64,000 nucleotides of DNA, from assembly GCA_024137785.1 (NCBI GenBank), contig JAHRHZ010000248.1:65953274-66017273 (forward strand), given 5' to 3'. The translations under genes and the position numbers were made by a program. The notes beneath the pieces are model-generated. The model did not search any database and was not told the DNA's origin. It saw only the letters and a list, made by a program, of their open reading frames with translations. Of the stretch, positions 1 through 51,900 are shown one piece after another (positions within the stretch are counted from its first letter, which is position 1; each line of letters begins with the position of its first letter). This DNA is from Ginglymostoma cirratum. Taxonomy: Eukaryota.

Positions 1-137
1 CATCATGATTTCTGATGAAGGGTTTAGGCCCGAAACGTCAAGTTTTCCTGCTCCTATGATGCTGCTTGACCTGCTGTGTTCATCCAGCCCCATGCTTGTT
101 ATCTCGGATTCTCCAGCATCTGCAGTACCTTTTATCT
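1..137 (+). mobile_element. Penelope-like element terminal repeat (pLTR) fragment with hammerhead-like core
   Basis: Bases ~8-103 are nearly identical to the 3' end of the RT/GIY-YIG element at 22538-22633. CTGATGA at 12-18 and GAAACGTC at 32-39. Directly followed by CR1 sequence. Confidence 0.85.
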
Positions 138-631
138 ATGAAGCTTTAAAGGGTTCAGTAAAGATTTATGAGGATGTTGCTGGAACTGGAGGGTCTAAGC
201 TCCAGGAAGAGGCTGAATAGGCTTGGGTTTTTCTTTCCCTCAAGTGTCAGAGGCTGAGGGGTGATCTTATAGAGGTTCATAAAATCACGAGGGGAATGGA
301 TAGGATGAATAGCCAAAGTCTTTTCCCCAGTGGAGGGGAGTCTAGAAATGGAAGGCATAGGTTTAAGGTGAGAGGGGAAAAATTTAAAATGTACCTGAGG
401 TGAAACCTTTCCATGCAGTGGGCGGTACGTGTATAGAATGAGCTGTCAGAGTATGTGTTGGAGGCGGGTACAATTATAACATTTAATAGGCGTCTGGATG
501 GGAACATGAATAGGAAGGGTTCAGAGGAATATGGGCCAAATGCTAGCAAATGGGACTGGATTAGTTTAGGACGGCATGGATGAGTTGGACTGAAGGGTCT
601 GTTTCTGTGCTGTACACCTCGATGACTCTAT
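138..631 (+). mobile_element. CR1-clade LINE (HER1-like) 3' end
   Basis: Decayed ORF2 C-terminus (LRGDLIEV.KI, RGHRFKV-type motifs) and the tail GAAGGGTCTGTTTCTGTGCTGTA...ATGACTCTA that recurs through the window. Confidence 0.85.
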
Positions 632-1139
632 ATCCCGACTTGCAAGCCTCGTGCGCAAACACACAAGGCAAACATAAAAATTACAGAATAGAGAAAATGA
701 ACTTTGGTCAAGTTAAACTTCAATATGGAAATTTAAAGTTGTAGTTGACATCTTAGAGAAATGCTGCTGTGGAAACCTTTGAAAGCTCTGTACTTGCAGG
801 GATGTCAGTACAGTCAAATGAAGTTATTAACTGGGTGCTAACTTGAACAGAAATAGAGACAGAGTGGTTGCTACCTCCCACAGTTGCTAATACATGTACT
901 TGGTCAACAGAGGTACAGCTCGGTGGTCACATACATTCTCTCCAACTTCCAACAGAAGTTCAATAATCCATTGAATGACTCAAAAAGTAGCTTTGACTAT
1001 TTCATATCTGCGGTTATCCTAAGAAAATCAAGGTATTTTGTCAAACCAATTAACTTCTGGTTGGTTCATTCCTCCAACATTGAAAATGTTGCGTTTCATT
1101 CTAAAGGATATATCTGACAAAGTTCTTAGAATTCTTTGG

Positions 1140-1985
1140 GGAGTCAACCAACAGGATAGGTAAACTAAAGTAGAAATAATATATTTGGATTTCCAACAGT
1201 CAATGAAGTACTGTATGCAAGATTGCTAAAGAATCCTTGATGTTGGGGTTTCAACATTAGCACGACTCGAGGATCAGTTAACAGATTCAGGATAAAGGGG
1301 ACATTTTCAGGATGGCAACCTTCAACTAGTGGAGTGTTACAGGGATCAGTGTTGAAACTGTGGTTATGTACAACATAAATGAATGAATTGGATGTGGAAA
1401 GTTGCCAAGAATGAAATATATATGATATTGGTTAGGACAACCTTTGGAATACAGTTCAGTTCTGGTCTCCCTGCCATAAGGAAAGATGTTGCAAAACTTT
1501 AAAGGGTTCAGAAAAGATTTGCAAGGATGTTGCTAGGGTTGGAGGATTTGAGCTAAAAGGGAGAGCCTGAATAGGCTGGGGATATTTTCCCCAGTGTCAG
1601 GGGCTGAGGGGTGACCTTATAGAAGTTTATAAAATCACGAGGGGCATAGGTAGAATGAATAGCCAAGGTCTTTTCCCCAGGGTAGGGGAGTCCAAAACTA
1701 GAGGGCATAGGTTTAAGGTGACAGGGGGAAGACTTAAAAAGGACCTAAGGGGGAACATTTTCATGCAGAGGGTGGTGCGTGTATGGAAAGAGCCGCCAGA
1801 GGAAGTAAAGGCTGGGAAAATTACAACATTTAAAAGGCATCTGAATGGGTATAGGAATAGGAAGGGTGTAGAGGGATATGGACAAAATGCAGGCATATCG
1901 GACTAGATTAGTTTAGGATATCTGACTGCCATGGATGAGTTGAACTGAAGTGTCTGTTTCCATGTTGTACATCTCTATGACTCTA
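1140..1985 (+). mobile_element. CR1-clade LINE fragments (old RT remnant plus younger 3' end at ~1425-1985)
   Basis: ORF 1655-1906 reads KTRGHRFKV...FMQRVVRVW and ends in the same tail as 138-631. Confidence 0.8.
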
Positions 1986-2070
1986 AGTCTAGCTGCACCA
2001 TGCAAGGAAGTAGTCAGACTATATTGAGAAACCTAAAAATAGTTTTGATCCCTTATCTGAGGAAAGATAT

Positions 2071-5850: not shown

Positions 5851-7419
5851 TCCTTTCCATCCTGCTGTCCCAAGGGGACAGGGAATGTCAAAAGACGAGA
5901 TGATGAAACTCGGTACTTATAGAATAGAAGTTCTAATACCCTGCTGGTGGACTTTAAGAATTATTGCACTCTCCCTGAAATCGCTCCACTAAGGGCCAGT
6001 CTCCTACAGACTGCCCTGGAATTAAGGGATAAAGGACGCCCCTTGGCAATCCCTTTAAAATATGGGGTAGTTGATTACTTTGCGCAGGTTTGTGGGCACA
6101 TGTTTAATGCTGATACTTTTTTAGGCAAAACAAAAACAACGACCGAAATGAGATTGACCTTTACCACAGCAGTGATTGGGAGGTGTTGTCTAATCGGGCG
6201 TCTTTGAATGTCAAGATTCTCCTGGTATTCAAATAATGCAGGCGTGTTCTCCTTAACTAGCATTTAGCGCAACGTTCTTGGTTTGAGAAGATTACGTGGT
6301 GAATATCTCATTTGGGGGAAACTTGCTGTAGTGTTTTTTTTTTTTTGCTAAGCTTCCTACACTTAAGTTGTAAAACGCTTTGTCCTGAGACATGACAGGC
6401 ACCATATAAGTGCGTGCCTATTTGTTTACCAATACCCCGCTACTGACGTGTCAGCAATTCTTTGACATTTTTGGTAACTGGCTGAATAATTCTGAACATT
6501 CAAGGATATAAAGCAAGAGGAAGCAATTAGAATGGTGTTATAATGGAATAACTTTTTAATGCTTAGTTGTGTTAACTGGAATGCATTACTTTCCATAGAG
6601 AATTGTTGCTACCTTGCTGACTCTTGGACTATTGAGAATCTGTCAAAAAAAAGTAGTTAGGTAATGTTTGGATATGGGAAATATTTTCTTAAGTGAGTAA
6701 CTTTGAATGTGGGTTGATCCAATGAACAATTGGCAATGTAGGAGGCATGTTGCTGCACCTCCTGAAATGAACCAGGTTTTGCATTGTGGTGAACAGACCA
6801 CAGAAGTCATGTTATTAAGACACTAGTCTAAATATTAAGACAAGGGATTTGAGTGTGATACATTGAGGGCAAACAGTAAAGCAAAAATTTATTTTTGCAA
6901 CAGTTTTTTAAAAATTTGAGTAAATGTGGATCTTTTGGAGTTAACTATGAGAATTTGAAATGTTTTTCCCCATCTCATTTTGTAGTAGAGAAAATGGGAC
7001 AGGTGGTAACGTTTGTGTTGCATTATTTATCCAAATGTTCTGACTTAAACATATTTAATTTGCTTTAAGTACCAGGCACCAAGACTTGAGAATGAGAATT
7101 TTGTGGCACTGGAAACAGCTGCTCACATGACAATGCAATGTGGTTGACTACAGTGAACAGATAATCTGTACCAAGTTTAATATGTACAAACAATTTGAGA
7201 ATTTTTGTGCTGAGAAATTGATCCCAACTGTTTTCATTGGTACTAGACACCATCATTAACCATGTTTGCTTCACTGGCCCCTGCCCACATTTAATTGTTA
7301 TCAGAAATTAAACTTTTAACCTTTTAATTACCCAGCAATTTACTTGATTAAGATTTTGTTCCAGTTATCCTTGACATAGTTAACTATTGCCTTTAAACTG
7401 AACATCCTAAGTTGTTTTT

Positions 7420-7545
7420 TGCAGTCTGGCAGCATCTGTGGAGAGAGAAACAGTTCATGTTTTGAATGTCTGTCTTTTTTTTTGATTTGAGCGTGAAATC
7501 TGGCTGTTTCTCCAAATGCTGCCAGACCTGAAGAGTGTCTCCACT
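7420..7545. mobile_element. Decayed fold-back PLE-derived element
   Basis: GTCTGGCAGCATCTG on the left pairs with CAAATGCTGCCAGAC on the right. Similar to the elements at 33295 and 39229. Confidence 0.55.
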
Positions 7546-7579
7546 TTGAAAGGATGAAATTAAAACAAGGTAGTATTTC

Positions 7580-10500
7580 ATAGAACATAGAACAGTACAG
7601 CCCTTCAGCCCATGATGTTGTGCTGACCTATTATCCTACATAGCCTACATTTTACTATCCTCCATGTGCCTATCCAAGAGTTGCTTTAAAAGTCTCTCAT
7701 ATCTGATTCCACACACCCACCACACTCTGTGAGAAGAACTTACCTCCGACATCTTCCCTATGCCTTCCTCCAATCACCTTAAAATTATGCCCCCTTGTAA
7801 TAGTCACTTCTGCCCTGGGGAAAAGTCTCTGGCTATCCATTCTGTCTATGCCTGTCGTGTACACCTCTATCAAGTTGCCTCTTGTCCTTTGCTCCAATGG
7901 GAAAAAACCCTAGCTTCCTCAACCGTTCCTCATAAGACCTGCTCTCTAGTCCAGGCAGCATCCTGGTAAATCTCCTCTGCACCCTCTAAAGCTTCCACAT
8001 CCTTCCTATGATGAGGTGACCAGAACTGAACACAATATTCCAATTGTGGCCTAACCAGGGTTTTATAGAGCTGCAGCATAGCCTTGCAGCTCTTAAACTC
8101 CAATTCCCCTGCCGATGAAAGCCAACACACCATACGCCTTAACAAGCCTATCAACTTGAGTAGCAACTTTTGAGGGATCAATGGAAGTGAACCCCAAGAT
8201 CCCTCTTGTTCTTCCACGCTGCCGAGAATCCTGCATTCAAATTCAACCTTCCAAAATGAATCACTTTACACTTTTCAGGGTTGAATTCCATCTGCCACTT
8301 CTTTGCCTAGCTCTGCATCCTGTCAATGTCCCGTTGCAACCTACAACAGTCCTCCACACTGTCCACAACTCCGCCAACCTTCATGTCTTCGGCAAACTTA
8401 TCGAACCACTCTTCCACTTCCTCATCTGAGTTACTTATAAAGATCACAAAGAGCAGAGGTTGCAGAATAGATCCCTGCAGCACACCACTGGTCACTGAGC
8501 TCCAGGCTGAATACTTTCCATCTACTACCACCCTCTGTCTTCTATTAGACAGTCAGATTTCCCTGAATCCCATGCCTCCTTACTTTCTGAATAAGCCTAC
8601 AATGGGGAACCTTATCAAATGTCTTGCTAAAATCCATATACACCACATCCACTGCTCTAGCTTCAGCAATGTGTTTTGTCACATCCTCAAAGAACTCAAT
8701 AAGGCTTGTGAGGCATGACCTGCCCCCCCTCAAAGCCATGCTGACTATTTCTAATCAAACTGTGCTTTTCCAAATAATCATAAATACTGTCTCTCAAAAT
8801 CCTCTCCAATAATTTGCCCACTACAGAAGTAAGACTGACCAGTCTAATTCCCAGGATTATCCCTATCCCTTGTTCAAGAAAGGGAAATGACATTTGCCAC
8901 CCTCCAATCATCTGGTGGTACTCCAGTGGACAGTGAGAATGCAAAGATCATTGCCAAAGGGGCAGCAATCTCTTGCCTCGCACCCTGTTTTAACCTTGGG
9001 GAGATCCCGTCTGCCCCAGGGGACTTATCTATCCTCATGTTTTTCAAAATTTCTAGCACATCCTTCTTCCGAACATCAACCTGTGTTAGTATATCTGCCT
9101 GTTTAATGCTGTCCTTGCAAACGTCCCTCTCACTGGTGAATACTGAGGCAAAGTATTCATTAAGGATCTTCCCTGACTCTGCACATGAGTCCTGTTCACT
9201 GTCCCTGATTGGCCCTACCTTCACTCTGGCCATCCTCTCGTTCCTCACATAAGCATAGAATGCCTTGGGGTTTTCCTTGATCCTACTTGCCAAGGTTTTT
9301 TCATACCCTCTTCTAGCTCTCGTAAGTCCACACTCTAGATCCCTCCTGGCTACCTTGTAGACCTCTAGAGCCCTGTCCGGTCCTTGCTTATTCAACCTTA
9401 AGTAAGCTTCCTTCTTCCTCTTGACTAGATGTTCCACATGTCGGAGTTGTGATCACTGTCACTGAAGTGCTCTTCCACTGAGTGATCTGACACCTGGCCT
9501 GGTTCGTTGCCAAGTGCCAAATCCAATATGGCATCCCCTCTAGTCAGCCTATCTACATATTGAGTCAGAAATGCTTCCTGGAGACTCCTGACAAAATCTG
9601 CTCTATCCAAACTATTCGTACTTATGAGGTTCCAGTCTATATTAGGGAAGTTAAAGTCGCCCATGACAACAACCCTATTACTTCTGCACCTTTCCACAAC
9701 CTGTTTCTCAATCTGTTCCTCATATCTCTGTTGCTATTGGGGGGCTCGATAGAAAACTCCTAATAAAGTGACTGCTCCTCTTCTGTTTCTGACTTCCACC
9801 TGTACTGACTCAGTGGACAAACCCTCCTCCATGACCCCCCCTTTCTGCAGCTGTGATACCATCCCTGATTAGCAATGCCACTTCCCCACATCTTTTACTT
9901 CCCTCACTATTTCTTTTGAAACATCTATACCCCATCCAACAACCATTCCGGTCCCTGTGTTATCCAAGTTTCCATAATGCCCACAACATTGTAGTTTCAA
10001 GTAATGATCCATGCTCTAAGGTCATCACCCTTATTCCTGACACTTGCATTGAAGTAGACACACCTCAACCTGTCGCACTGACTACTACATTGCCCTATCA
10101 ACTGCTTATCCTTCTTCACAGATTCTCTGCTTGCTGTATCTGCCTATACACCAGCTACCCCATCCTCTGATCTGTAGCTCCAGTTCCCATCCTCCTGCCA
10201 AACTAGTTTAAACCCTCCCGAAGAGCTCTAGCAAACCTCCTGCCCGGGATATTGGTGCCCCTCCAGTTCAGCTTCAACCTGTCTTTCCTGTACAGGTCCC
10301 ACCTTCCCCAGAAAGTATCCCAGTAATCCACATCTGAAGCCCTCCCTACTACACCAGCTCTGTAGCCATGCGTTCAGCTGCACTTGCTCTCTATTTCTCA
10401 CCTCACTAGCCCATGGCACTGGTAGTAATCCTGAGATTATTACTCGACTTGTCCTAGCTTTTAGCTTCCATACTAACTCCCTATTTTCAGGTCCTCATCC

Positions 10501-14699: not shown

Positions 14700-14880
14700 A
14701 GCATCTGCTGTTCTTGCTGGAGTCCGAGATGACACTGCGGAGCTGGAGGAACACAAGCCAGGCAGCGTTAGAGGAGCAGGAAAGTTGCCGCCGGGAAAAA
14801 TGAAGGGTCCCGACCCGAAACGTCAATTCTCCTGCTCCTCTGCCGTGTTCCTCCAGCTCCACACTGGGTTGTCTCCGATT
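14700..14880. mobile_element. Fold-back PLE pLTR pair with partial hammerhead core
   Basis: GGAGCTGGAGGAACAC (14739-14754) is the reverse complement of 14845-14860, and AGAGGAGCAGGA (14770-14781) of 14830-14841. Centre reads TGAAGGGTCCCGACCCGAAACGTC. Confidence 0.75.
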
Positions 14881-19735: not shown

Positions 19736-20893
19736 TCTTTTTTTAATTTCAGATATGCTGAAGGTTACTTTTGAAAGAAACTGTGTTTTGGTTACTTTAT
19801 CATGAACTGGCCATGAATGAGGTTTACAATTAAATGAAATCCAACCAGTAGAAACTGCTTCTGCCTTCTAGTTGACTTGATTCTTCCAATCTCCAAGAAA
19901 AGGAAAGTATTATGAATGAATTATCACAGCTGGGAATAATAAGCAAAATGGAGAGCTTGGTTTGACACATTTGAGCTTAAACTTAAGGAATATGAGAGAC
20001 TTCAATTCTAAATTGTTTGAAAAACTTTTTTAATAGACCTGACTGTTAATTTTTGATCATTCCATTTTTTTTCACACTTTGACCACTGCTGCCAAGTTGT
20101 AGATCTGTTTCATTGTCATATTGAAGTGATCAAAGGTATAGTTGACAGTGAAGATAATCTAAGATTACAAAGATCCTGACCAATGGGTTGAGGAGTGGTA
20201 GATTTAATTTGGATAAATGCGAGGTATTGCACTTTTGTAAATCAAACAAGGGCAGGCGTTAGAGTTAATGGTGTGAGTCCTTGGGTAGTGTCGTCGAACA
20301 GAGAGACTGAGGGGTTCAGGTGTGTTCTTCAAAAGTTGTATCACAGGTATATGGATGTCTCAGAAGGCATTTTGCTCGCTTGTCTTCATTGCTCAAACCA
20401 CAGTATCGGAGTTAGGAGGTCATGTTGAGATTGTACAGGACATTGAGGCCTCTTCTGGAGTATTGTGTACAGTTCTGGTCATCCTGCTATAGGAAGTACA
20501 GTACTGAATAGGAGAGGATGCAGAGAAGATTTTAAGGATGTTACTGGGACTGGGAGGTTTGAGTTAATAGGATAGGCTAGAAATGTTTTCCTTAGAACAC
20601 AGGAGGTTGGCGGGGGGATTCTTGATAGAGGTTTATAAATTAATAACAGGCATAGGGTGAAAAGCAAAAGTCTATCTTCTCTAGGGTGGGGGAGTTCAAA
20701 ATTTGGGGACATTCTTAAGATCCTTTTTTAAATCCGACAACTTTTTCACAGTATGGTTCTTAGATGGAATAAACCGCCAGAGGAAGTGGTAGATGTAGGT
20801 ACAGTTAGCACGTTTAAAAGGCATCTGGATAGGTGCATGAATAGCCAAGTTTTAGAGGGAGATGGTCCAAACAGGCAAAAAACATATAGGCAA

Positions 20894-22633
20894 TTTTTAC
20901 TATGGACGTCCAGTCCCTATACACCTGTATTCCCCATGCTGATGGCCTAAAGGCCCTCCGCTTCTTCCTGTCCTGCAGAACTGACCAATCCCCCTCCACC
21001 GACACCCTCATCTGCTTAGCCGAACTCGTCCTCACCCTCAACAACTTCTCTTTCAATTCCTCCCACTTCCTACAGACAAAGGGGGTGGCCATGGGTACCC
21101 GCATGGGCCCAAGCTATGCCTGCCTCTTTGTAGGTTACGTGGAACAATCCCTCTTCCGTACCTGCACTGGCCCTAAACCCCACCTCTTCCTCTGTTACAT
21201 TGACTGCATCGGCGCCGCCTCGTGCTCCCACGAGGAGCTCGAACAGTTCATCCACTTCACCAACACCTTCCACCCCAACCTGAAGTTCACCTGGACCATC
21301 TCCAACACTTCTCTCTCCTTCCTGGACCTCTGTCTCCATCTCGGGCAACCACCTAGAAACAGATGTCCGTTTCAAGCCCACTGACTCCCACAGCTACCTG
21401 GAATACACCTCCTCCCACCCACCCTCCTGCAAAAATGCCATCCCCTATTCCCAATTCCTTCGCCTCTGCCGCATCTGCTCCCAGGATGAGACATTCCAAT
21501 CCCGCACATCTCAAATGTCCTCATTCTTCAAGGACCGCAACTCTTTCCCCCCCCCCCCACCACAGTTGTCGAGAACGCCCTTGACCGTGTCTCCCGCATT
21601 TCCCAGAACACGTCCCTCACGCCCCGTCCCCGCAATAATAACCAAAAAAAAAAATCCCCCTCGTCCTCACATACCACCCCACCAACCTCCGGATCCAACG
21701 CATCATCCTCCGACACTTCCGCCATCTGCAATCAGACCCCACCACCAAAGACATTTTTCCCTCCCCACCCTTATCTGCCTTACGGAGGGACCACTGCCTC
21801 CGCGATTCCCTTGTCCACTCCACACCTGGCACTTTTCCTTGTAACCGCAGGAAGTGCTACACCTGCCCCCACACCACCTCCCTCGCCCCAAGAAGACTTC
21901 CCACATCAGGCAGATGTTCACCTGCACATCTGCCAATGTAGTATACTGCATCCGCTGTACCCGTTGTGGCCTCCTCTACATCGGGGAAACCAAGCGGAGG
22001 CTTGGGGATCGCTTTGCAGAACACCTGCGCTCAGTTTGCAACAAACAACTGCACCTCCCAGTCGTGAACCATTTCAACTCCCCCTCCCATTCCTCAGATG
22101 ACATGTCCATCCTGGGCCTCCTGCAATGCCCCAGTGATGCCACCCGAAGGCTGCAGGAACAGCAAATCATATTCAGCCTGGGAACCCTGCAGCCCAATGG
22201 TATCAATGTGGATTTCACAAGCTTCAAAATCTCCCTTTCCCCCAACTGCATCCCAAAACCAGCCCAGCTCATCTCCACCTCCCTAACCTGTTTTTCCTCT
22301 CACCCCAAGCCCCACCCCCATCTCCTATCTACTAACATCATCCCGCCCCCTTGACCTGTCCGTCCTCCCTGGACTGACCTATCTCCTCCCTACCCCCCTA
22401 CCTACACTCACCTTTACTGGCTCCATCACCGCCTCTTCGACTTGTCTGCCTCCTCTCCACCTATCCTCTCCTCTATCCATCTTCTATCCGCCTCCCCCTC
22501 TCTCCCTATTTATTTCAGAACCCTCTTCCCCTCCCCCATTTCTGATGAAGGGTCTAGGCCCGAAACGTCAAGTTTTCCTGCTCCTATGATGCTGCTTGAC
22601 CTGCTGTGTTCATCCAGCCCCATGCTTGTTATC
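20894..22633 (+). mobile_element. Penelope-like retroelement, 5'-truncated: RT, GIY-YIG endonuclease and pLTR (frameshifted)
   Basis: MDVQSLYTCIPH, QTKGVAMGTRMGPSYACLFVG and FLCYID (PLE RT). NVVYCIRCTRCGLLYIGETKRRLGDRFAEHL (GIY-YIG). Probable TSD ATAGGCAA (20886-20893) / ATAGGTAA (22634-22641). Confidence 0.93.
22538..22573 (+). ncRNA. Minimal type I hammerhead ribozyme motif in PLE terminal repeat
   Basis: ATTT-CTGATGA-A-GGGT(CTAG)GCCC-GAAACGTC-AAGT: intact core boxes, 4-bp stem II, palindromic ACGT stem III, short stem I. Activity is not shown. Confidence 0.7.
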
Positions 22634-25698: not shown

Positions 25699-26785
25699 AG
25701 ACCAACGGGTGTTGAGCTGGATGAACACAGCAGGCCGAGCAGGAAAGCTGACGTTTCGGGCCTAGATCCTCCTTCAAAAATGGGGGAGGGGAACGGGGTT
25801 CTGAAATAGGGAGAGGGGGAGGAGGATAGAGGATGGATAGGTGGAGGGGAGGCAGACCGGTCAAAGAGGTGGGGATGGAGCCAGTAAAGGTGAGTGTAGG
25901 TGGGGAGGTCGGTCAGTCAAGGGAGGACGGACAGGTCAAGGGGTTAGGATGAGGTTAGTAGATAAGAGATGGGAGTGGGGCTTGAGGTGGGAGGAGGGGA
26001 TAGGTGAGAGGAAGGATGGGTTAGGGAGGCAGGGACGAGCTGGGCTGGTTTTGGGATGCAGTAGGTGGAGGGAGATTTTGAAGCTAGTGAAGTCCACATT
26101 GATACCATTGGGCTGGAGGGTTCCCAAGTGGGATATGAGTTGCTGTTCCTGCGACCTTCAGGTAGCATCAGTTGTGGCACTGCAGGAGGCCCAGGATGGA
26201 CATTCCATCTGTGGAATGGGAGGGGGAGTTGAAATGGTTCGTGTCTGGGAGGTGCAGTTGTTTAGTGCGAACCGAGCGTCGGTGTTCCTCAAAGCAGTCC
26301 CCAAGCCTCTGCTTGGTTTCCCTGATGTAAAGGAGGCCGCAACAGATACAGTATACCACATTAGCAGATGTGCAGGTGAACATCTGCTTGATGTGGAAAG
26401 TCTTCTTGGGGCCTGGGATGGGGGTGAGGTGTGGGGGCAGGTGTAGCACTTCCTGCGGTTGCAGGATGGGTGGTGTTGGGTGGTGTGGAGCGGACAAGGG
26501 ATTCACGGAGGGAGTGGTCCCTCTGGAAGGCAGATAAGGGTGGGGAGGGAAAAATGTCTTTGGTGGTGGGGTCTGACTGCAGATGGCAGAAGTGTCGGAG
26601 GATGATGCATTGGATCCGGAAGTTGGTGGGGTGGTACGTGAGGGTGAAGGGGATTCTGTTTTTGGTTTTTATTGCGAGGAGGGGGTGTGAGGGCTGAGCT
26701 GCGGGAAATGTGGGAGACACTTGAGGGCGTTCTCGACCACTGCGGGGGTGATGTTGCGGTCCTTGAAAAACGAGGACATCTGAGA
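25699..26785 (-). mobile_element. Penelope-like retroelement, 3' part (GIY-YIG and pLTR)
   Basis: ORF 26168-26506 reads FTCTSANVVYCICCGLLYIRETKQRLGDCFEEH and is colinear with 21510-22630 in the opposite orientation. Decayed hammerhead at ~25749-25776. Confidence 0.9.
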
Positions 26786-32500: not shown

Positions 32501-32529
32501 GACATTAGCTTATCTTACCTTCACCTAAT

Positions 32530-32880: not shown

Positions 32881-33294
32881 CTCGAACAGAAGGTGGCTAC
32901 CTGGTGCACTGACTCCATGACTTCCATGCGTACGTCCCCTGATTTGATCCTGTAATCCAACAAAATTTATTTCTTTCAGCTGCCCATCCAATTTCCATCG
33001 GAAAATACTTTCGTCTTCCGCTGTCTTTGGGCAGCAAGTTCAAAGCGAGAAAAATTTCTTGTTTTTTCTTTATATTTTTTAAGAGGCTATATCCCTAGTC
33101 TCACAGTAGGAACTGCCGCTGCTAGAGAATCTGAGATGACAAGGTGTAGAGCTGGATGAACACAGCAGGCCAAGCAGCATCTACATTCCTAGTCATCCCT
33201 CTGCATGTTTTGCCTGAGATTTTAAAAACTCACTGGCCCAGCCATCTCTTTGAACAATGACTGGTCATCCAGCCTAAGGTCAGAAGTGTGAATC

Positions 33295-33510
33295 AAAAAC
33301 AAATTGCTGGAAAAGCTCAGCAGGCCTAGCAGCAGTTGTGGAGAGAAAGTGGAGTTCATGTTTTGGGTCAAGTGACTCTTCCTCAGAATTGGGGACTGGT
33401 GTTCTGAGGAAGGGTCACTCAGTTTGAAACATCAGCTCTGATTTCTTTCCACCTGCTGAGCTTTTCCAGCGATTTTTGATTTCCAGTATCGGCAGTTCTT
33501 TGTTTTTGTG
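33295..33510. mobile_element. Fold-back PLE-derived element (family 2) with two opposed hammerhead-like cores
   Basis: 33306-33324 is the exact reverse complement of 33452-33470. 33371-33388 pairs with 33402-33419 with 1 mismatch. Contains CTGAGGAAGGGTCAC...GAAACATC. Confidence 0.75.
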
Positions 33511-35377
33511 TAGTGAACATGCACGTTTCTGAATAATCAGCACCATTTGACTACTTGGATACTAAAGCAGTCCATGTCCACGTGTGCTAAATTACACTCT
33601 CCATCCTGATGTGGAACTATATTACCATTTCTCCACTGCTAGATCAAAATACTGGAACTGACTTCCTCACGACTGGGTATTACTGCATGCTAACACCTGC
33701 AGTAGTTGAACGTATCTCAAATCCACCTCAACAGCAGTTGGGGAAAGGATAGTGCTGATCCAGTTGGTGACACCCATGTTCCATGAAGGAACGTTGTTTT
33801 TTGTTGCTGGTCCTCTTGCCATCAGCTAATGGTGACAAGATTCCTTGTTTGCTTAATTTAAAACCCGTCATGTACATGTCTATCATGTGTCCCCTCAACT
33901 TTTCCGAACTTTTTGCAGTTATTTTCCACACCCCTGGAGCTGCTCTATTAAAGGTACTCTGCAGCTCATTTCCCTGCTCCCAAAAAGGGGCCTCAAATTC
34001 CTGATCTGAGGTGAGTATGACTGGAAACACTATTCTATTTGTGGTCTTGCTACCGTAATGGTGGAGATAGAAAAGTTGACTTGGTTTGGCTGCCTACTTC
34101 TGTATTCATAACAGGGTAAAATTAATCCCTTCAAAAACAGTCTAGTTACTCTAGTGGTTTGATCCCAGCTGTTGGGAATGACTGATCCCAGCCACTGATT
34201 TTTGATCCTTTCAACAATAAACTTAATGTTGTGTTAAACATTAGCAGAGCCAGTTTAAATGAAGTAATCTAATTAATGTCTATGCTTTTAAACCCATCCA
34301 CACAAAGCAGACAAACACCTCTAAGGGATAGATAAAAGAAAATAACAAAACTAGCCAGCCTACTTGAATGTTTTTTTGGTGATGCTTTGTTTCACGTAGT
34401 TGTAGAATCCTCAATAGTTCTGCCGAAGCATTGAACAAGGTCACTTTCAGTTTACTCGGATACAAGTAGTAATACTTCTAACTCTGTCTACTGTCTGGTC
34501 CTCCAGAAGCTGGTGTGGGAAAAGAGGCAGGGAGCTTTCAACTTACTGTCTGCATCGCCAGCCAAGCTCCACTCTTTCACAAAAAAAGTTCAAAATAAAC
34601 AGCTTCAACTCTGGTCCTGTCTCTGAGAGATGGAATAAAAATAATGAAAAATCAGCAAGGGTTCTAATACTATGGAACTTTGGAGTTTAGCATCACTTCT
34701 GTTTGTAAATCCCATTTTTCACTCTTGTGATATATCCTTTAACCTTGCAATGATGCGTTAATTCCAGTTCCTTTGTTTGTACAGGTACATGTAACTATGC
34801 CTTTTAAGTCTGTTGCGTCACTGTATTCCTTTGAACAAAGTGCAACAAATCACTACTTCTGCACAAAGTTCCTTGCCACTTGTTGGCTTGTTCTACCAGC
34901 CTGTCATTTTGGAAACAAATGTAATCCTCAGTCTTCACCCCTTATGTTTGATGTCATCTGCTGTAAGCTTTAAGTTGTCTATATTGCAAATCACTTGGAC
35001 GGAAAAAATGAGCTGAGCAATGCCATCTACTTTTGTTTTATTTTTAAACTGTTTGAGTCCTGCTGGCTTCTGGAGTAAGCCCTCTTTTTATTATCCAATT
35101 GGACAGTTTCTTTTGTCCAATGGCCCTCAAATTTTTCAGCAGCCTTTGTACTTTGCCAAAAATGCTTTCATATGGAGATAACAATCTGTAGCTTCCCTTC
35201 AAGTTTGAAGAAAGTGTTCAGGTAAAAATATCTAAATTAGATTTATCAAATGTGATGTTTGTTTCTTCTACAAATCCAATGCTTGTTCTTCAACTTCAAG
35301 TTCCTGATTCATCTGATTATTTTTAAAAAAAAAACCTCATTCGCTGGAAGCTTAACTGTTGGAGCAAATTGCTACCA

Positions 35378-35794: not shown

Positions 35795-35910
35795 ATGCTT
35801 GACGTTTCAGGCCTAGACCCTTCATCAGAAATGCTTGGCCTGCTGTGTTCATCCAGCTCCACACCTTGTTATCTCGGATTCTCCAGCGTGTGCAGTACCT
35901 ATTTTCTCTA
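35795..35910. mobile_element. PLE pLTR insertion with inverted 5' segment
   Basis: 35801-35828 is the hammerhead segment on -, joined to the downstream pLTR part on + (GCTTGGCCTGCTGTGTTCATCCAGC...). Confidence 0.8.
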
Positions 35911-37094
35911 ACCTTGCAATCTACTTGTGGCCTCCAACTTGAGCACAAATATTATAATTAGAATTGAGGTGTACAGATCTTTGTCTAAATATTTCACTTC
36001 TGCATCTTGGCAGAAACATTCTTGTTTAATATGATCATTGTGGAAAGGTGTTGTTCCTGGTCCCTGGTTTATTTAGCTTTGAGTGGAAAATTTGGCTTGA
36101 GATTTGAGATGGAATTTAGTACCAGGATGAATGAGAATTAAATAATGACTAACATAGTAAGGGCATGGGCAAAGGCACGATGGCAGTAATCATGCTAATG
36201 CAATTTTTAACTTGTGAAATTTCAAGGACTTTGGTTTTGTATTTTGCTTAGGAAGTGATCCTTGAGATGGAATCTGTGTGCCATAAAAGTTTATTAGCCT
36301 TGGAGCCCAGCTACCAAATCTTCAAATGCTTAGTTTGAGGAAACAGCAAAGGGTGAGTGGTAGTTGAGGGGGTGGGATGTAAAGAGAAGTTGAAACAGTG
36401 TTGAGGACTGAAGGAGTTTTGGTGAAGATCAGTGAATAGTACTAAAGGAGTGGTGAAAATTATCAGTTTAGCTCAGGGTCCTAAATGATTTTCTTTTAAT
36501 GGTGATAAGTGAGTAAACAATAAACCTGAATGAAGCAATGACATGATGAAATGCTGAAAAGAGCAATTTCCCTTTAATGGAGGAAATATTGCTGAGCATG
36601 AAAGTGTTTTCAGTGTCCTGATATTGATTTCTTTTTTTTTTAAAGCACTTCGATAATGGATGGTGATTTTCTTTAACTCAAGAGATTGATAAATTTTCTA
36701 CCTTTTGAGAGGCACAAGTACAGGGGAATAAAAGGCAGAATGGTTTCTGGGTCTTAGTGTGCAGTTGCAGTATCTCTTATCAGAAGGACTGGGTTCAAGC
36801 CAATTTGTTTGAGGTGTGTCAGAACATGACTGAGCAGTTTGATTGCTATTCTGCCTTTGGATATTTCAGCATGAGGTGGACTATGGGAAATTTTACATAA
36901 ATTAGTGCTGAGAATTACTGGTGAAATGACGATGGAAGTCAGTTTGGAATGTCTCTGGTTATGTCTTGTGCTATACACTTTGGATGATTTGAATGTTTGT
37001 TTGACTGCACAAGTTGTCACTTCATTGTACGGAACTTGATTGTTGCAGAAGCTTTTTGTCTGGCACTTAACAGAACAAAGGCAAAAGCAGTCAA

Positions 37095-39228: not shown

Positions 39229-39372
39229 GACCAAAAACAGTTGCTGGAAAAGCTCAGCAGGTCAGGCAGCATCTGTGCAGGAGAAAAGAGTTAATGTTTT
39301 GGGTCCGGTGACCCTTCCTCAGAACTTTGTTCTTGATTTACAGCATCTGCAGTTCTTTTGGTTTTTATTTAG
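39229..39372 (-). mobile_element. PLE-derived short element (family 2) with decayed hammerhead core
   Basis: Minus strand of 39288-39326 reads AGTT-CTGAGGA-A-GGGTC(ACCG)GACCC-AAAACATT-AACT, i.e. GAAACGTT with two CpG-type transitions. Confidence 0.7.
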
Positions 39373-42945: not shown

Positions 42946-43107
42946 GGTAGATAAAATAGGAGGCTGGAAGAATACAGCAAGCAAGGATGTATCTGGAGGC
43001 AAGGAGCAGTCAATTATTAGTCCTGAAGAAGGGACTAATAGTTGGACTTAGGGCATTCCTCAGATCTCAAAGATCCTGGAGCTGAGATGACTGATCTCAA
43101 ACAACCA

Positions 43108-43645
43108 CAGCAAATCATATTCAGCCTGGGAACCCTGCAGCCCAATGGCATCAAGTGGATTTCACAAGCTTCAAAATCTCCCCTCCCCCAACCGCATCCC
43201 AAAACCAGCCCAGCTCATCTCCACCTCCCTAACCTGTTTTTCCTCTCACCTCAAGCCACACCCCCATCTCCTATCTACTAACATCATCCCGCCCCCTTGA
43301 CCTGTCTGTCCTCCCTGGACTGACCTATCCCCTCCCTACCCCCCCACCTACACTCACCTTTACTGGCTCCATCCCCGCCTCTTCGACTTGTCTGCCTCCT
43401 CTCCACCTATCCTCTCCTCNNNNNNNNNNNNNNNNNNNNNNNNNNNNNNNNNNNNNNNNNNNNNNNNNNNNNNNNNNNNNNNNNNNNNNNNNNNNNNNNN
43501 NNNNNNNNNNNNNNNNNNNTTTATTTCAGAACCCTCTTCCCCTCCCCCATTTCTGATGAAGGGTCTCGGCCCGAAACGTCAAGTTTTCCTGCTCCTATGA
43601 TGCTGCTTGACCTGCTGTGTTCATCCAGCCCCATGCTTGTTATCT
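43108..43645 (+). mobile_element. Young PLE 3' fragment with intact hammerhead core (43553-43580), spanning an assembly gap
   Basis: Near-identical to 22160-22633 (QQIIFSLGTLQPNGI, polypyrimidine tract, pLTR). Confidence 0.9.
43420..43519. other. Assembly gap (100 N)
   Basis: Run of 100 N. Confidence 0.99.
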
Positions 43646-44759
43646 CTCAATAATAAGCATCTTAGTTTGTGCCTCATAGACTTGAATCGGTGAAAAGTCT
43701 TCCCTGTGATCCCCATTCACTGCAATTTTGCAGTTGGACCACCCCTGTCTCCCTGCTGGATAACGTTTTCTTTCTTTTTGGGTCATGTGCTGCCCAATAT
43801 TTACATGCTTTGCTTGGGCATAGGTCTGTCCCTGTTTGCTGAAAACAAATTCTCATTTGGCCTGGAATGTGTCTCATGATGTAAAACATTTGTTCACCCA
43901 TGTGATTTTCCAGCTGATGGATAATCACAACTTCTGCACATCTCAGTCACTTTCTTGAGTAAACCTCTTGTGACTAACAAACTAGGAGCAAGAGAAAGCC
44001 ATTTGACCCTTCAAACCTCCTTTTCCCCCATTGTATTAGATCATGGCTGATTCTCCTGTCTTACTGCCATGTTCCTACTTTCTCCATGCTTCTGCCTTTA
44101 AAATCAAAAGATCTGTCTGTCTCGAAGATATTTGATAATATGGCCTCCTTAGCCTTCTATAATAGAGAATTCCATTTGGACCTATGTCTAAAATGTCCAT
44201 CTGAGATTATTTTTCAGTCATCCAAGCTCATAGGATACAGCTGGATCGCACTGATCAACAGTCTCGTGCTTTCCTTGAGTGCTGACTAAATACTCTAAGT
44301 GCCTTATTAGATTCTCTGGTTTTTCTGCTCCTTCAATTTAGGCTGCAATGAAATTTGCACACTTTCCACAGTATGGATAGCTGGTTGCTACTAAATTGTA
44401 TGATTGTTTTCTAATTAGTTCTGTTGTTATCTTTTTATTTCTGACACTGAGTGGGGAAAAATGTCAGTTCTGTCATCTTGCTTCATGTCCACAGCAGCAG
44501 GGAGTGGAAAATCTGAAGCTTTTATGGACTCTTCCAGCAATTCCAACCTGCTTTTAGTAAAACCAAAAGTTGTTTTCCTAATTTTAAGCTGTTCTCCAAG
44601 CTTGAATAAACTAATGTTACAGCAGCTCAATACCATATTTCAAATGGTGTTCATTTGCTGCTGCAGACTCTGCAAACAAGCATGAGAGCAGACAGAGGCT
44701 ATGTGACTAAGGCAAGCTGGGCAGTAGACACTGCAGATTATTCCAAGCAGAAGTGTTTT

Positions 44760-45649: not shown

Positions 45650-46625
45650 TCTAGATGGGCCAGTGGGCTTAAGAGTGGCAGATGGGGATTTAATTTAGAT
45701 AATGGAAAGGCAAGTCAGGGCAGGACATAAACACATAATGGTAAGGTTCTGGGGAATGTTGAACAAAGAGACTCGAGTGCAGGTTCATAGTTCCTTGAAA
45801 GGGGAGTTGCAGGTAGATAGGACAGTGAAGACGTTTGGTTTGTCTTTATTGGTTGGTGCATTGAGTATAGGAGTTGGGAGGTCATGCTGTGTCTGTACAG
45901 GACATTGGTTCAGCCACTTGGAGTATTGCATGCAATTCTGATCTTCCTATAAGAAGGATGTTGTGAAGCTAGAAAGGGTTCAGAAAAGATTGGAGGTCCA
46001 ACCCTGCTTCCTTGACCTTACACAACCTGTCCATCTTTTTCGACATCTGTACCACTCCCTCCCTGCGCTCACCTACCTTCCCCAGCCTAACCCTTCCCCT
46101 CTCTCTTTTTATTTCCTAGCTCACTTCTGAAGGAGGGTCCTGGCCTGCTCTGTTCCTCCAGTTCCACACTGTTGTCTCTGACTCCAGCATCCGTAGTTCT
46201 TGCTATCTCTCCTTTTGAGGATGTTGCTGGGATTGAAGGGTTTGAACTGTAGGGAGAGGCAGAATGAACTAGGGCTGTTTTCCCTAGAGTGTCAGAGGCT
46301 GAGGGGCATGGGGGTGAATGGACAAGGTCCTTTCCCTGGGGTGGGGGAATACAAAACTAGAGGGCATAGGCCCCTGGTGAGAGGGGAAAGACATAAAAGG
46401 GACCTAAGGGGCACTTTTTTTTTTCATGCAGAGGGCAATGCATGTATGAAATGAGCTGCCAGAGAAAGTAGTGGAGGCTGGTAAAATGCAACCTTTAAAA
46501 GGCACCTGGATGGGTATATGGGCCAAATGCTGGCAAATTGGACTAGATTTATATAGGATATCTGGTCAGCATGGACGAGTTGGACCGAAGGGTCTGTTTC
46601 TGTGCTGTATATCACTGACTCGATG
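45650..46625 (+). mobile_element. CR1 3' region containing a PLE pLTR fragment at ~45991-46210
   Basis: HLEYCMQF and KTRGHR motifs and a CR1 tail. The inserted pyrimidine-rich segment ends in CCTGCTCTGTTCCTCCAG...CTCCAGCATC. Confidence 0.75.
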
Positions 46626-47337
46626 CCTATCTTGAGCTCCTAAAGGGCTCCTCAGATGCAGTGGTAGTGTCCCTAATCCTAGACTAGAAGGGAAGGTTTT
46701 AAATGCCACCTGCTGCAGAGACGTGGAATAACATCTCTGAACAGGTGGTTAACAGAATATCTACCTTGATCTCCAACATTGGTGTCTTTGGACTTGAATG
46801 ACCTCCAACCAGCACAGTTGTCTTTTGAGAATTGGTTTTAGCTAGTGGAGTAGGCTCTTCTCTTCCTTCCCACAGCCCTGTTCAAATTCCACATGTACTC
46901 CAATTTTTCCAGGGCTCTGCAATACCACATGAATATTGCTGTGAGGGCAGTCTTACTTCTATCACTTCTGGAGATCAGCTGTTTGAGATGTCGTTGGATC
47001 AAGGCTGTAATGAGGTCCAGAGCTAGATGACCCTGGCATAAATTTTAACTGGGCCTTGGAGAGCAGAATTGTGTGAATGTGTGGAAAGCAGGGTAGTAGT
47101 TTTCCAGGTTCTGTTTTTGTATTGTTTACAACTGCCCAATTTCCATCAGGTTTTTACTGCTAAATAACAATTCTCATTAATTCCCATATTTCAAATTGAT
47201 TGTGTTAATGGACCTGAACCATGCATCTTGAAGCAATATAACATTGCACCAACAAATCCTAGATTTCTGCATTTTAACTGTGCATTTGTAGATTTCTGAA
47301 CTTGTTGCTTTTGAGGACCAATAGCAGTCATGGCTGA

Positions 47338-47474
47338 GAGAAAAGGTACGGCAGATGCTGGAGAATCCGAGATAACCAGCATGGGGCTGGATGAACACAG
47401 CAGGTCAAGCAGCATCACCTGCTCCTATGATGCTGCTTGACCTGCTGTGTTCATCCAGCCCCATGCTTGTTATC
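47338..47474. mobile_element. Young fold-back PLE pLTR insertion with 16-bp TSD
   Basis: 48-bp arms at 47370-47417 and 47428-47475 (1 mismatch) around a 10-nt loop. TAGCAGTCATGGCTGA is duplicated at 47322-47337 and 47475-47490. Confidence 0.92.
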
Positions 47475-47613
47475 TAGCAGTCATGGCTGATGTTGGTTTC
47501 ATCATGACTTAGCAAAGTAAGACCAATGTAAACAATACTGCAGATCTTAATTTTGGTGTTTTACTGTTAACTGTGTTGAATTTATCAGGTTTTACAGCAC
47601 TGTAACACTTAGT

Positions 47614-49212: not shown

Positions 49213-50399
49213 GCCAACCATACAAATGTGGTTGACTGTCATCCAGTAGGAAAGTGAGCTACTTGTATTTAAAAACACATGTATTGTTATAGTGAGGACT
49301 ACAATTATTGAAGTTAACCCACTGCCATCTGTCCAGAGCATTCCACCATTAATCCTGACACCAGCTAATTTCCACTTTTTTGATTACCCAATTTTAACTT
49401 GAATAATTTTTGGTTCTAGGAACAACAATGTTCTGAAGAATACAAGTGACTAAAAGTATAATGCAAAATTAGTTTGGGAAATGCTTTTATGAGGTTGTAG
49501 ATATGTTCACAGAGCCATTGGGTTTGGTTGCAAATATTTTGTCACCCTGCTAGGTAACATGGTCAGTGCGCCTCCAGTGAAGCATTGCTGTTCTGTCCCA
49601 TTTTGTTATTTACATATCTCGGTTTGTTGGGGTGTTTGGTACCACTTTGGGTTTTGTCTGTATACTGGGTCCAGTTCAATGTGTTTGGAGTTTGGTTAGA
49701 AAACCAGGCCTCCAGGAATTCCCTGGCATGTCTCTGTTTGGCTTGTCATTCCAGTTGAATTCGTGTCCCTCATTGTCAGTGTGTAGTGAGAATTGGTTGT
49801 GTCTCTCGGTGGCTAGTTGGTGTTCATGTATCTGTCCTGTTGGTTTTCTGGTTTGGCCTATGTGGTGTTTCTCAGTCCTTACAGGGTATTTTGTATATTA
49901 CCCCAGTTTTGGGTATGGGATCCTTTTACGTTTGTCAGTAGCTGTTGTCGGGTGGTTGGTTTGTCGGCTACTCTGATTATTAGGAGTCTGAAATAGTCTT
50001 GTCTCTGAAATGTCCTTTATGTACAGTAGGGTAATTTTAGTGATTCTGGTCATGTGTCTTCCTGTCGTCTGTCTCAGAGGTAATGGCGGATTGTGCTTTT
50101 CAGGTATCCATTCCTTTTTACGCCTCCATATAGGTGCTCCTGTTATGCTTTGTCTAATTCCCAGTTGCTGCAATGTGTTGTGGCTCATTTAAATAACATC
50201 CTGAAGCATCTCTATTTGTGGGTGTTGGGGTAGTTGAGAGTGCAAGTGAGTATCTGGTCAGTATGTGTGGTCTTTCTATATATGCTAGCCTGGAGTTCCC
50301 CCATTGTTGTGTTCTACCACTTCGGTCCAGGAAGGGCAGTTGGTTGTCCTTTTTCTTTTTGTGAATTTTATCCCAGTAAGGATGTTTGTGTCGGTGGGT

Positions 50400-51180
50400 T
50401 TCTTGGGGTCCACGTCTATCAATCTCTGAAAGTTGCTATCCAAGTTGATAGGGTTATGAAGAAGGCATATGGTGTGTTGGCTTTCATTGACAGGGGAATT
50501 GAGTTTAAGAGCCATGAGGTTATGGTGCAGAGACAAGAGGAACTGCAGATGCTGGAGAATCCGAGATAACAAGGTGTGGACCTGGATGAACACAGGCCAA
50601 GCAGCATCATAGGAGCAGGAAAGCTTGATGTTTCGGGTCTAGACCCTTCATATGCTGCAGCTCTATAAAACCCTGGTCAGACAACACTTGGAATATTGTG
50701 TTCAATTCTGGTCACCTCCCTATAAAAAGGATGTGGAAGGTTCTTGAGAGGGTGCAGAAGAGATTTACCAGGGTATTGCCTGGACTGGAGGGCAGGTCAT
50801 ATGAGCAAAGATTGAGGGAGCTAGGGCTTTTTTGTCCCATTTGGAGCAAAGAAGGATAGATGACTTGACAGAGATTAACGAGATGATGAGAGGCATAGAT
50901 AGAGTGGATAGCCAGAGACTCTTTTCCAGGGTGGAAATGACTATTACGAGGGGGCATAATTTTAAGGTGATTGGAGGAAGGTATAGGGGAGATATCGGAG
51001 GTAGGTTCTTCACACGGGTGGGCGTGTGGAATGCGCTGCCAGCAGTGGTAGTGGTGTCTGATACTGGAGACTTTTAAGCATATCTTGGATGGGCACATGG
51101 AGGATAGTGAAATGTAGCATATGCAGGGTAGATTGATCTTAGGATAATAAGTCAGCGCAATATTATCAGCTGAAGGGCGA
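50400..51180 (+). mobile_element. CR1 3' fragment, same subfamily as 7580-8170
   Basis: QVDRVMKKAYGVLAFIDRGIEFKS and TRGHNFKVIGGRYRGD. Confidence 0.85.
50531..50650 (-). mobile_element. PLE pLTR fragment with 10-bp TSD
   Basis: Reverse complement of the pLTR at ~15-137. Flanked by TATGGTGCAG (50521-50530) and TATGCTGCAG (50651-50660). Confidence 0.85.
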
Positions 51181-51900
51181 TAATATACTAACAAAGATGT
51201 TAGTTACTGATGGATACTCATTTTGTACGTTTAGTAATCGCAAAAGTGTCCTCTACATATTGGACACAGTTTTTGGCTTGCATAGTCCTGATATTGGGCA
51301 TCCCACTGGTTTTCTGTTGATTTTGTTTGTATATGCCATTATTGAAGGTGAAGTGGGTTGTGAGATACATATGCCAAACAAGACACGTCAGGGAATTCCT
51401 GGAGGCCCAGTATTCTAACCAGAACTCCAACAAACACATTGGTTTGTACATTGGGTCTAATTCATTGAGAAACAGAACTGGAAGTGGTACCAAACAGACC
51501 TATAAATAAACAAACAGGACAGAACACCGCTTCAGCAGAGGCACACTGACAATGTTACCTAGCAGGGTGACGAAATGTCTGCAACCAAACCCACCGGCTT
51601 GGCAAGCACGTCTACAACCTCATTCACAACCCAAGCTACAAATCTTCTCAAACTTTAAATCCTTTCCTATGTTAGGAGAAAGACGTGGGCTGAAGTTTTT
51701 CTAGAGGTGTGGAAGACTCGAGTACAGTAGATTTTTAAGCTGTTACCAACAAGTTACAACTGTTTTCATAGAAATCTCTAAACTTTAAATCATAAGCCTG
51801 GTCAAGAAGACTTCCTAAATGTATAATTTTTCCAGCAGCTTTCATGAAATTTGTAATTCTTGCTGGATTTGCTGATGTAATTATTTTCTTTTTGTTTTAG

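What the first reader, a model, noticed from the sequence alone, without database searches (positions are those of the whole stretch)
8..51585. Minimal hammerhead ribozyme cores shared by at least three PLE families with co-varying stem II
Seen: family 1 has CTGATGA-A-GGGT(NNNN)GCCC-GAAACGTC at 12-39 (loop TTAG), 22542-22569 (CTAG) and 43553-43580 (CTCG), plus a variant on - at 35801-35828. Differences among the three + copies fall in the loop. Family 2 has CTGAGGA-A-GGGTC(ACCG)GACCC-[G>A]AAAC[G>A]TT on - at 39288-39326. Family 3 has CTGAC[G>A]A-T-GTTACC(TAGCAG)GGTGAC-GAAA[C>T]GTC at 51546-51579. Stem II sequences differ but still pair, each has one extra base after CTGANGA, and stem III is reduced to the palindrome ACGT. 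Established: PLEs are known to carry minimal hammerheads thought to act as dimers (Cervera and De la Pena 2014). Inference: this genome has a dense, multi-family set of ribozyme-bearing PLE ends, about ten recognisable cores in 64 kb, most of them decayed. I do not know whether the shark families have been described.
Basis: partly seen in the sequence, partly recalled or inferred. Interest (0 to 1): 0.75.

Follow-up and report, generated by a model that had tools for sequence, protein, structure and literature searches.

The report
Hammerheads in shark Penelope retroelement ends
The small self-cutting-RNA motifs are really there, but they are the already described "minimal hammerheads" at the ends of Penelope-like jumping genes, and in this shark DNA most copies are broken and likely inert leftovers of old insertions.

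Summary
The cores are at the stated places. Four family-1 cores are complete (0 in 12 shuffles). 13 cores can be put in register and 9 are broken, mostly by CpG decay. Family 1 lies about 280 nt behind a decayed RT + GIY-YIG frame with a Neptune-type linker. Family 3 follows a Poseidon-type endonuclease. Family 2 is a homologue of family 1 (73% over 82 nt), so there are two independent lineages, not three. 'Co-varying stem II' is overstated: within families 1+2, 0 of 4 stem II pairs change on both sides. RNA reads show no pile-up at the cut site. The anatomy is that of Cervera and De la Pena 2014. One lead: short copies and fold-back joints cluster at the ribozyme's 5' edge, often in stem I register. 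This scan noted the motif and the 5'-edge clustering before on other shark DNA. New member of a known kind.

The parts
20890..22262 (+). 5'-truncated, frameshifted PLE ORF: RT core, thumb, C-X4-C-X2-C linker (about 21837-21860), GIY-YIG endonuclease. RT catalytic YxDD has lost one Asp in this copy. Neptune-type.
   Evidence: Pfam RVT_1 E 1.4e-5 (below cut-off) and GIY-YIG E 5e-5; 90% identical to a whale shark protein; tblastn map; linker
22263..22633 (+). pLTR of family 1, ending at the short 3' end without tail; 8-bp target-site duplication (1 mismatch) at 20886 and 22634
22538..22573 (+). Complete minimal type I hammerhead: stem I 22538-41/22570-73, core 22542-48, bulge 22549, stem II 22550-53/22558-61, GAA 22562-64, palindrome 22565-68, predicted cut after C22569
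8..140 (+). Short family-1 copy starting 4 nt before C3, complete core 12-39, with the roughly 35-nt tail
43051..43646 (+). Truncated family-1 copy (EN end + pLTR, assembly gap 43420-43519), complete core 43553-43580
35797..35913 (-). Fold-back insertion: inverted pLTR/tail arm joined to an arm that is only the hammerhead (core 35828-35801, complete, G-U at 10.1-11.1), 8-bp duplication
25716..26785 (-). Older family-1 subfamily copy (80% identical over 1140 nt): RT thumb, EN, pLTR; decayed core 25777-25750
50521..50651 (-). Short family-1 copy starting inside the core (3 nt after C3), with tail and 8-bp duplication
14715..14875 (+). Fold-back family-1-type copy: sense arm starts 3 nt after C3 (core remnant 14800-14824); inverted arm starts 4 nt after the cut site by alignment (within about 1 nt by eye)
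46092..46190 (+). Family-1-type pLTR with the 3' half of the hammerhead deleted
47335..47475 (.). Fold-back family-1 insertion without hammerhead (arms start 7 and 17 nt after the cut site), perfect 16-bp target-site duplication; source of the spurious Rfam miRNA hits
33100..33181 (-). Short family-1 3' end with tail, no hammerhead, 10-bp duplication
39232..39372 (-). Family-2 fold-back insertion; core 39322-39293 with G12>A and G16.2>A (CpG decay), 5-bp stem II, 4-bp stem I, GUU triplet; 10-bp duplication
33294..33513 (.). Family-2 head-to-head pair: decayed cores 33386-33357 (-) and 33404-33433 (+), 17 nt apart on opposite strands
58205..58290 (+). Decayed family-2 copy, core 58205-58234 (further remnants near 30055-30150 + and 7424-7490 -)
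51373..51623 (+). Family-3 (Poseidon-type) EN C-terminus + pLTR; core 51546-51579 with G8>A and C15.2>T, 6-7-bp stem II; an ATG opens stem II as in Anolis PAc
   Evidence: PMC11167929
49489..50310 (-).

Best explanation
These motifs are minimal type I hammerhead cores in the pseudo-LTRs of a Neptune-type and a Poseidon-type Penelope-like retroelement lineage of a shark, and the copies here are likely inert passengers copied from uncleaved element RNA. Inferred mechanism: in the source element the RNA would form stems I and II, complete helix III only by pairing its 4-nt palindrome with a second copy, probably with help from the element's protein, and cut weakly after position 17. Reverse transcription likely starts about 65-100 nt downstream of the ribozyme (short end or tail) and runs through the intact motif. 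Every insertion that passes that point therefore carries a core, and very many short ones stop or fold back at the motif's 5' edge. After insertion the cores decay neutrally at CpG sites. Shown: sequence, context, decay, junction positions. Inferred from literature: dimer or protein-assisted cleavage, internal initiation. Not tested: cleavage.
For: Four perfect cores against 0 in 12 shuffles. F1 core about 280 nt 3' of RT + GIY-YIG on the same strand. C-X2-5-C-X2-C linker in 47 of 48 F1 RT homologues with an EN start, and in 0 of 5 F3 EN relatives with at least 70 aa upstream, matching the Neptune/Nematis versus Penelope/Poseidon split (PMC8557442 passages). F3 shares the core boxes although blastn finds no other likeness to F1 or F2. 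Stem I pairs 2.1-1.1 and 2.2-1.2 switch from U-A/U-A to A-U/C-G between lineages. Among listed high-frequency read variants, 4 of 5 free places (N7, loop 2) against 0 of 14 core places (Fisher p=0.0013); both listed stem II changes keep a pair. 12 of 16 non-truncation core defects are CpG transitions. Two 3' ends with and without tail, inverted arms and target-site duplications. No pile-up of RNA ends at the cut site among 40,446 laid reads (table 6), as reported for Anolis.
Against: No cleavage was assayed. The core is not significantly more conserved than the flanking pLTR in the read table (0 of 14 against 26 of 206, p=0.38), and 93 of 133 variant rows were not shown. Several listed loop and stem rows rest partly on a run with only 52 reads. 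No two-sided change in stem II within F1+F2; whole-structure covariation has 6 of 500 shuffles as high, which relatedness alone can give. The monomer's predicted fold is an alternative rod (-9.3 kcal/mol) rather than stems I+II (-3.4), and fold z-scores are not significant. Rfam hammerhead models do not hit. F2 has no ORF-linked copy in the window. PolyA libraries are a poor test for cleavage ends.
Confidence: 0.87

Rival explanations
1. The ribozyme cuts a substantial share of element RNA in vivo, and insertions record this: fold-back copies join a cDNA from an uncleaved RNA to one from a cleaved RNA whose 5' end is nucleotide 1.1.
For: 8 of the 14 best-supported inverted joints have their second side at 22571-22579, 1-9 nt after the cut. 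The inverted arm at 14784 begins within about 1-4 nt of the cut site.
Against: No read-end pile-up at 22569/22570 (table 6). No loose-end peak at 22570 among the rows shown. The same joints fit stem I microhomology: 6 of 14 lie within -1..+3 of the stem I register. An indel at 22571-22574 between subfamilies blurs these positions. HHR mutants do not impair PAc insertion in vitro.
Confidence: 0.08
2. The motif is kept for a reason other than catalysis, such as a DNA or RNA signal overlapping the ORF start or a protein-binding site, and only resembles a hammerhead.
For: An ATG lies inside the motif in F1 (in box CUGAUGA) and F3 (start of stem II). The predicted monomer fold is not the hammerhead fold. 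Core not shown more conserved than flank.
Against: All catalytic boxes, the 9.1 bulge, G10.1-C11.1 and the palindrome are shared by two lineages with unrelated flanks. The homologous PAc motif cleaves and is killed by C3G or G8C, with partial rescue by the double mutant (PMC11167929).
Confidence: 0.03
3. The intact copies here are co-opted: three complete sense-strand cores upstream of the MTUS1 coding exons pair in one pre-mRNA and cut it.
For: MTUS1 exons at 52107-54335 and 56563-56787 lie on +; 3 of 4 complete cores are on +.
Against: The three cores are 21-22 kb apart and 98-99% identical, that is, simply young. No upstream MTUS1 exon was located, so an intronic position is not shown. The family is very abundant (0.31% of reads of one polyA run touch the 281-nt stretch). 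Older cores decay neutrally.
Confidence: 0.02

Closest known systems
Minimal hammerheads (min-HHR) in pLTRs of metazoan PLEs (Cervera and De la Pena 2014, PMC4209133; read parts 1-2 of 4)
   Same: Type I, no helix III, palindrome at 15.2-16.2, extra nucleotide between 9 and 10.1, G10.1-C11.1, short helix I, several consensus families per genome, mostly solo truncated copies, pairs on opposite strands; reported in Xena, Poseidon and Neptune PLEs of fishes, and thousands in coelacanth and Xenopus.
   Different: Sharks are not named in the parts read, nor in 2 of 3 supplementary files (file 1 could not be searched). F1 has a 4-bp stem II and a 3-4-bp stem I, at the short end of the range. A junction hotspot at the 5' edge is not described in what I read.
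PAc, Poseidon of Anolis carolinensis (Frangieh et al. 2024, PMC11167929; passages and section 3 part 2)
   Same: HHR in pLTR, ATG at the start of stem II (F3), two 3' ends separated by an optional tail, no RNA-seq ends at the cut site.
   Different: PAc is intact and assayed (protein-assisted cleavage, dispensable for insertion); the copies here are decayed and untested. F1 and F2 are Neptune-type.
Neptune/Nematis and Penelope/Poseidon EN+ PLE clades (Craig et al. 2021, PMC8557442; passages)
   Same: RT then GIY-YIG, pLTR, inverted 5'-truncated arm, 30-40-bp tail; Zn-finger-like linker present in F1, absent in F3 relatives.
   Different: Clade placement here rests on the linker and on similarity, not on a tree with named references; Neptune versus Nematis was not tested directly.
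Non-LTR retrozymes of vertebrates (Li, Clavereau, Pollet 2026, bioRxiv 10.64898/2026.07.22.740005; read parts 1-3 of 5)
   Same: Type I HHR units derived from PLE pLTRs; found in the one chondrichthyan sampled. Contigs laid here show head-to-tail re-entries (22577>22537, 22570>22541) elsewhere in the sequenced organisms.
   Different: No tandem array in this window; copies are solo or fold-back insertions with target-site duplications. Its supplements were closed, so its shark families may or may not include these.

Membership tests
PLE minimal hammerhead (min-HHR) | Catalytic boxes CUGANGA and GAA-A...UH intact | tested here: met
   4 of 13 registered cores complete, all F1; no complete F2 or F3 copy in the window
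PLE minimal hammerhead (min-HHR) | Stem II with G10.1-C11.1 and one extra base after A9 | tested here: met
   Extra base in 13 of 13; pair 10.1-11.1 G-C or G-U in 12 of 13; 91% of stem II cells paired in 11 F1+F2 copies
PLE minimal hammerhead (min-HHR) | Type I topology with a short stem I | tested here: met
   3-4 bp in F1/F2, 2-3 bp in F3, with compensatory switches between lineages
PLE minimal hammerhead (min-HHR) | Helix III reduced to a palindrome | tested here: met
   4-nt palindrome at 15.1-16.1 in intact copies; self-duplex about -3.1 kcal/mol
PLE minimal hammerhead (min-HHR) | Located in a pLTR, sense to a PLE ORF | tested here: met
   F1 and F3 directly; F2 only by homology to F1
PLE minimal hammerhead (min-HHR) | Covariation and conservation beyond flanking sequence in family consensuses | tested here: inconclusive
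   Free places vary more than core (p=0.0013) but core not less than flank (p=0.38), 40 of 133 rows; 0 of 4 stem II pairs with two-sided change in F1+F2; no genome held
PLE minimal hammerhead (min-HHR) | Self-cleavage as dimer or with protein | not testable with these tools
   No assay; no RNA end pile-up in two RNA runs
Rfam hammerhead families | Covariance-model score | tested here: not met
   No hammerhead family among 5 matches at E up to 5
EN+ PLE, Neptune type (F1) | RT followed by GIY-YIG with C-X2-5-C-X2-C linker | tested here: met
   47 of 48 homologues
EN+ PLE, Penelope/Poseidon type (F3) | C-terminal GIY-YIG without the linker | tested here: met
   GIY-YIG in 3 of 7 relatives scanned; linker in 0 of 5 with enough upstream sequence
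EN+ PLE clades | RT phylogeny with named reference elements | not tested
   No named references held
EN+ PLE insertion unit | pLTR, optional tail, inverted 5'-truncated arm, short target-site duplication | tested here: met
Non-LTR retrozyme | Tandem units each with a complete HHR | tested here: not met
   No same-strand cores closer than several kb in the window; tandem joints only in contigs from elsewhere

The most novel reading that the evidence does not exclude
The hammerhead fixes where Neptune-type reverse transcription ends. The enzyme runs through the uncleaved ribozyme, stops at the 5' strand of stem I, and the cDNA snaps back on stem I to self-prime the inverted arm. The ribozyme fold, not its cut, would then make the head-to-head pLTR hairpins and the flood of solo cores in shark genomes, and junction maps would give a genomic read-out of PLE RNA ends.
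Probability: 0.2. Interest if true: 0.5.

Novelty: new member of a known kind. Interest (0 to 1): 0.2.

Why it matters
As stated, the finding extends a 2014 result to shark PLE families and changes no concept. The role of PLE hammerheads is still open (PMC8557442 and PMC11167929 passages), and shark genomes hold so many copies that their junctions could test it. If starts and fold-back joints sit at the 5' edge of stem I rather than at the cut, uncleaved RNA is the in vivo template and the ribozyme's structure may shape insertion architecture.

Tried and rejected
No whole genome is held, so no genome-wide family alignment. Rfam scan: only miRNA-like and viral hairpin hits on fold-back copies, all below gathering scores, rejected. 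Metagenome scan with a pLTR 3' motif: 120 loci, median GC 0.64, no blastn match beyond about 32 nt and one core-like chance string; not PLE copies. Descriptor hit at 44925 - (2 mismatches, in another repeat, no sibling core): treated as chance. Word-based protein search with the F3 EN fragment found nothing; the HMMER search found 12, of which P0129 and P0140 looked unrelated and were not used. ESM Atlas on the long ORF was only a weak lead. Fold z-scores of the cores are not significant. One pair count used a structure shifted by one column and was replaced. The first fuzzy scan timed out. Lunse et al. on dimer cleavage is not held; I saw it only as cited in a review. Rejected: retrozyme array in the window; three independent families; host co-option.
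Full report
Observation. A relaxed hammerhead descriptor finds 4 perfect cores (12-39 +, 22542-22569 +, 43553-43580 +, 35828-35801 -) and 5 with at most one mismatch, against 0 and 0 in 12 Markov shuffles. At two mismatches the window adds 3 hits (39322 -, 51546 +, 44925 -) against 0-3 per shuffle, so families 2 and 3 need other support. They have it. Ungapped scans and blastn recover 4 F2 cores and a second F3 core at 49566-49533 -. In all, 13 cores can be put in register; a half core at 46127 and remnants near 30060 and 7460 were left out of that count. 4 of 13 are complete, all F1. Of 21 core defects, 5 are 5' truncations and 12 of the other 16 are CpG transitions. Rfam's hammerhead models do not hit.

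Context. The window is shark DNA: an RT fragment is 90% identical to a whale shark protein, and MTUS1 coding exons lie at 52107-54335 and 56563-56787 on +. The core at 22542 lies about 280 nt behind a frameshifted RT + GIY-YIG frame (20890-22262) on the same strand. Its linker holds C-X4-C-X2-C, as do 47 of 48 RT homologues that reach the endonuclease (of 120 listed). By Craig et al. 2021 (PMC8557442, passages) this marks Neptune/Nematis; the 2026 preprint found only Neptune and Poseidon in vertebrates. F3 follows a different GIY-YIG: 3 of 7 relatives scanned hit Pfam GIY-YIG and 0 of 5 with enough upstream sequence have the linker. An ATG opens F3's stem II, as in the Anolis Poseidon element. 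F2 has no ORF-linked copy here but is 73% identical to F1 over 82 nt including the sequence behind the core. So there are two lineages, one with two sister families. Short copies have PLE hallmarks: two 3' ends with and without a roughly 35-nt tail (table 7), inverted arms, and target-site duplications, one a perfect 16-mer (the 8-bp ones with a mismatch are weak singly).

Structure. On 11 F1+F2 copies, 85% of cells pair (51-58% when slid by one), stem II 91%. However, 0 of 4 stem II pairs change on both sides and 4 vary on one side; 2 of 4 stem I pairs show a two-sided change, partly in truncated copies. 'Co-varying stem II' therefore rests on one comparison, F1/F2 against F3. The monomer is predicted to prefer a rod that buries the core (-9.3 against -3.4 kcal/mol), and the palindrome duplex gives about -3.1. 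This fits weak or assisted activity but proves nothing.

Reads. I laid 22400-22680 on 4 of the 24 runs listed. In a polyA RNA run, 40,446 of 12,895,792 reads read (0.31%) touch it, unstranded and mostly in part; a second RNA run gave 52. Of 133 variant rows, 40 were shown, apparently those with about a quarter or more in some run (my inference). Among them, N7 and three of four loop-2 places vary (4 of 5), no core place does (0 of 14; p=0.0013), and both stem II changes keep a pair. Against this: core versus flank is 0 of 14 versus 26 of 206, p=0.38, some rows lean on the 52-read run, and hidden rows may include core CpG changes. No place shows a pile-up of molecule ends (table 6), so there is no sign of cleavage, though polyA libraries are a weak test.

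Junction lead. RNA depth doubles between 22530-39 and 22540-49 (6,063 to 13,050), with 2,076 unlike loose ends before 22539. 12 of the 14 inverted joints shown (15 of 167 rows shown) have one side at 22535-22539, the 5' strand of stem I, and 6 of 14 pair it with 22571-22575, within -1..+3 of the stem I register. Head-to-tail joints also re-enter at 22537-22541. In the window, 4 of 9 short F1 arms start within -5..+3 of C3, and F2 cores share no upstream sequence beyond their own inverted overlap. Rows are not independent loci, part of the depth step comes from subfamilies with other upstream sequence, and an indel behind the cut blurs positions. Self-priming at inverted junctions was already proposed for PLEs (PMC3846280, passages); tying it to stem I is my inference. 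I noted the 5'-edge pattern before seeing that this scan had reported it on other shark DNA.

Mechanism. Most likely, in source elements the motif works like other PLE min-HHRs: helix III forms only between two copies or with the element's protein, and cleavage is weak (PMC4209133; PMC11167929; review PMC6765202). Reverse transcription likely starts at the short end or tail and copies uncleaved RNA through the core, so most insertions carry one. Copies then decay neutrally. No two same-strand cores here are close enough to suggest a cis dimer. Rivals (in vivo cleavage footprint, non-catalytic signal, host co-option) are given with their evidence in the rival list.

Prior work. Searches found no paper that describes shark PLE hammerhead families or the 5'-edge hotspot. 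The library lacks most subscription papers, Lunse et al. is not held, one 2014 supplementary file and all supplements of the 2026 preprint were not visible, and that preprint reports PLE-derived hammerhead retrozymes in one chondrichthyan. PLE expansion in whale shark introns is published (bioRxiv 10.1101/443036, passages). The other papers listed were seen only as search listings.

Verdict. Real, correctly recognised, known kind; new species members at most. Interest 0.2. The junction geometry is the only part worth following.

Noticed in passing
window 52107-54335 and 56563-56787 (+): First large and next coding exon of shark MTUS1 (71% identical to a Chiloscyllium punctatum protein); all hammerhead copies but one F2 remnant lie 5' of them, no upstream exon located.
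   Followed up: partly
window 22400-22680, reads: A>G plus T>C make up 55 of 98 variant places in the polyA RNA run against 20 of 63 in the contig run of another organism (transitions only, p=0.017). This may be A-to-I editing of fold-back pLTR hairpins; it needs matched DNA.
   Followed up: partly
window 22490-22519 (+), also 25805-25830 (-), 43520-43530 (+), 46100-46122 (+): Polypyrimidine tract ending in YAG about 5-22 nt upstream of the F1-type cores, like a splice acceptor; a pLTR intron ending near helix I is described for D. virilis Penelope.
   Followed up: no
window 35797-35913: Insertion with target-site duplication in which one arm is exactly the hammerhead from the 5' to the 3' strand of stem I and stops 3-4 nt after the cut site.
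   Followed up: partly
contigs X1, X9 laid on window 22537-22577: Head-to-tail joints 22577>22537 and 22570>22541 point to tandem hammerhead units of about 36-41 nt elsewhere in these organisms, natural candidates for dimer cleavage or retrozyme-like arrays.
   Followed up: no
proteins P0131, P0133, P0136: Behind their endonuclease these gene models carry peptides compatible with a read-through of an F3-like hammerhead region, suggesting the same motif in related Poseidon-type elements of other animals (inferred from protein only).
   Followed up: no
window 141-630, 1429-1994, 7600-8199, 8874-9452, 20400-20880, 45864-46632, 50401-51178: Fragments of LINE-like repeats (recalled as CR1/L2 type, not tested); several PLE copies are inserted into them, for example 50521-50651 splits one.
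   Followed up: no
window 47384-47460 and 14733-14866: Fold-back pLTR insertions score as miRNA precursors in Rfam below gathering thresholds; a likely source of false miRNA annotation in sharks.
   Followed up: partly
window 43420-43519: 100-N assembly gap inside the pyrimidine-rich pLTR of the 43553 copy.
   Followed up: no
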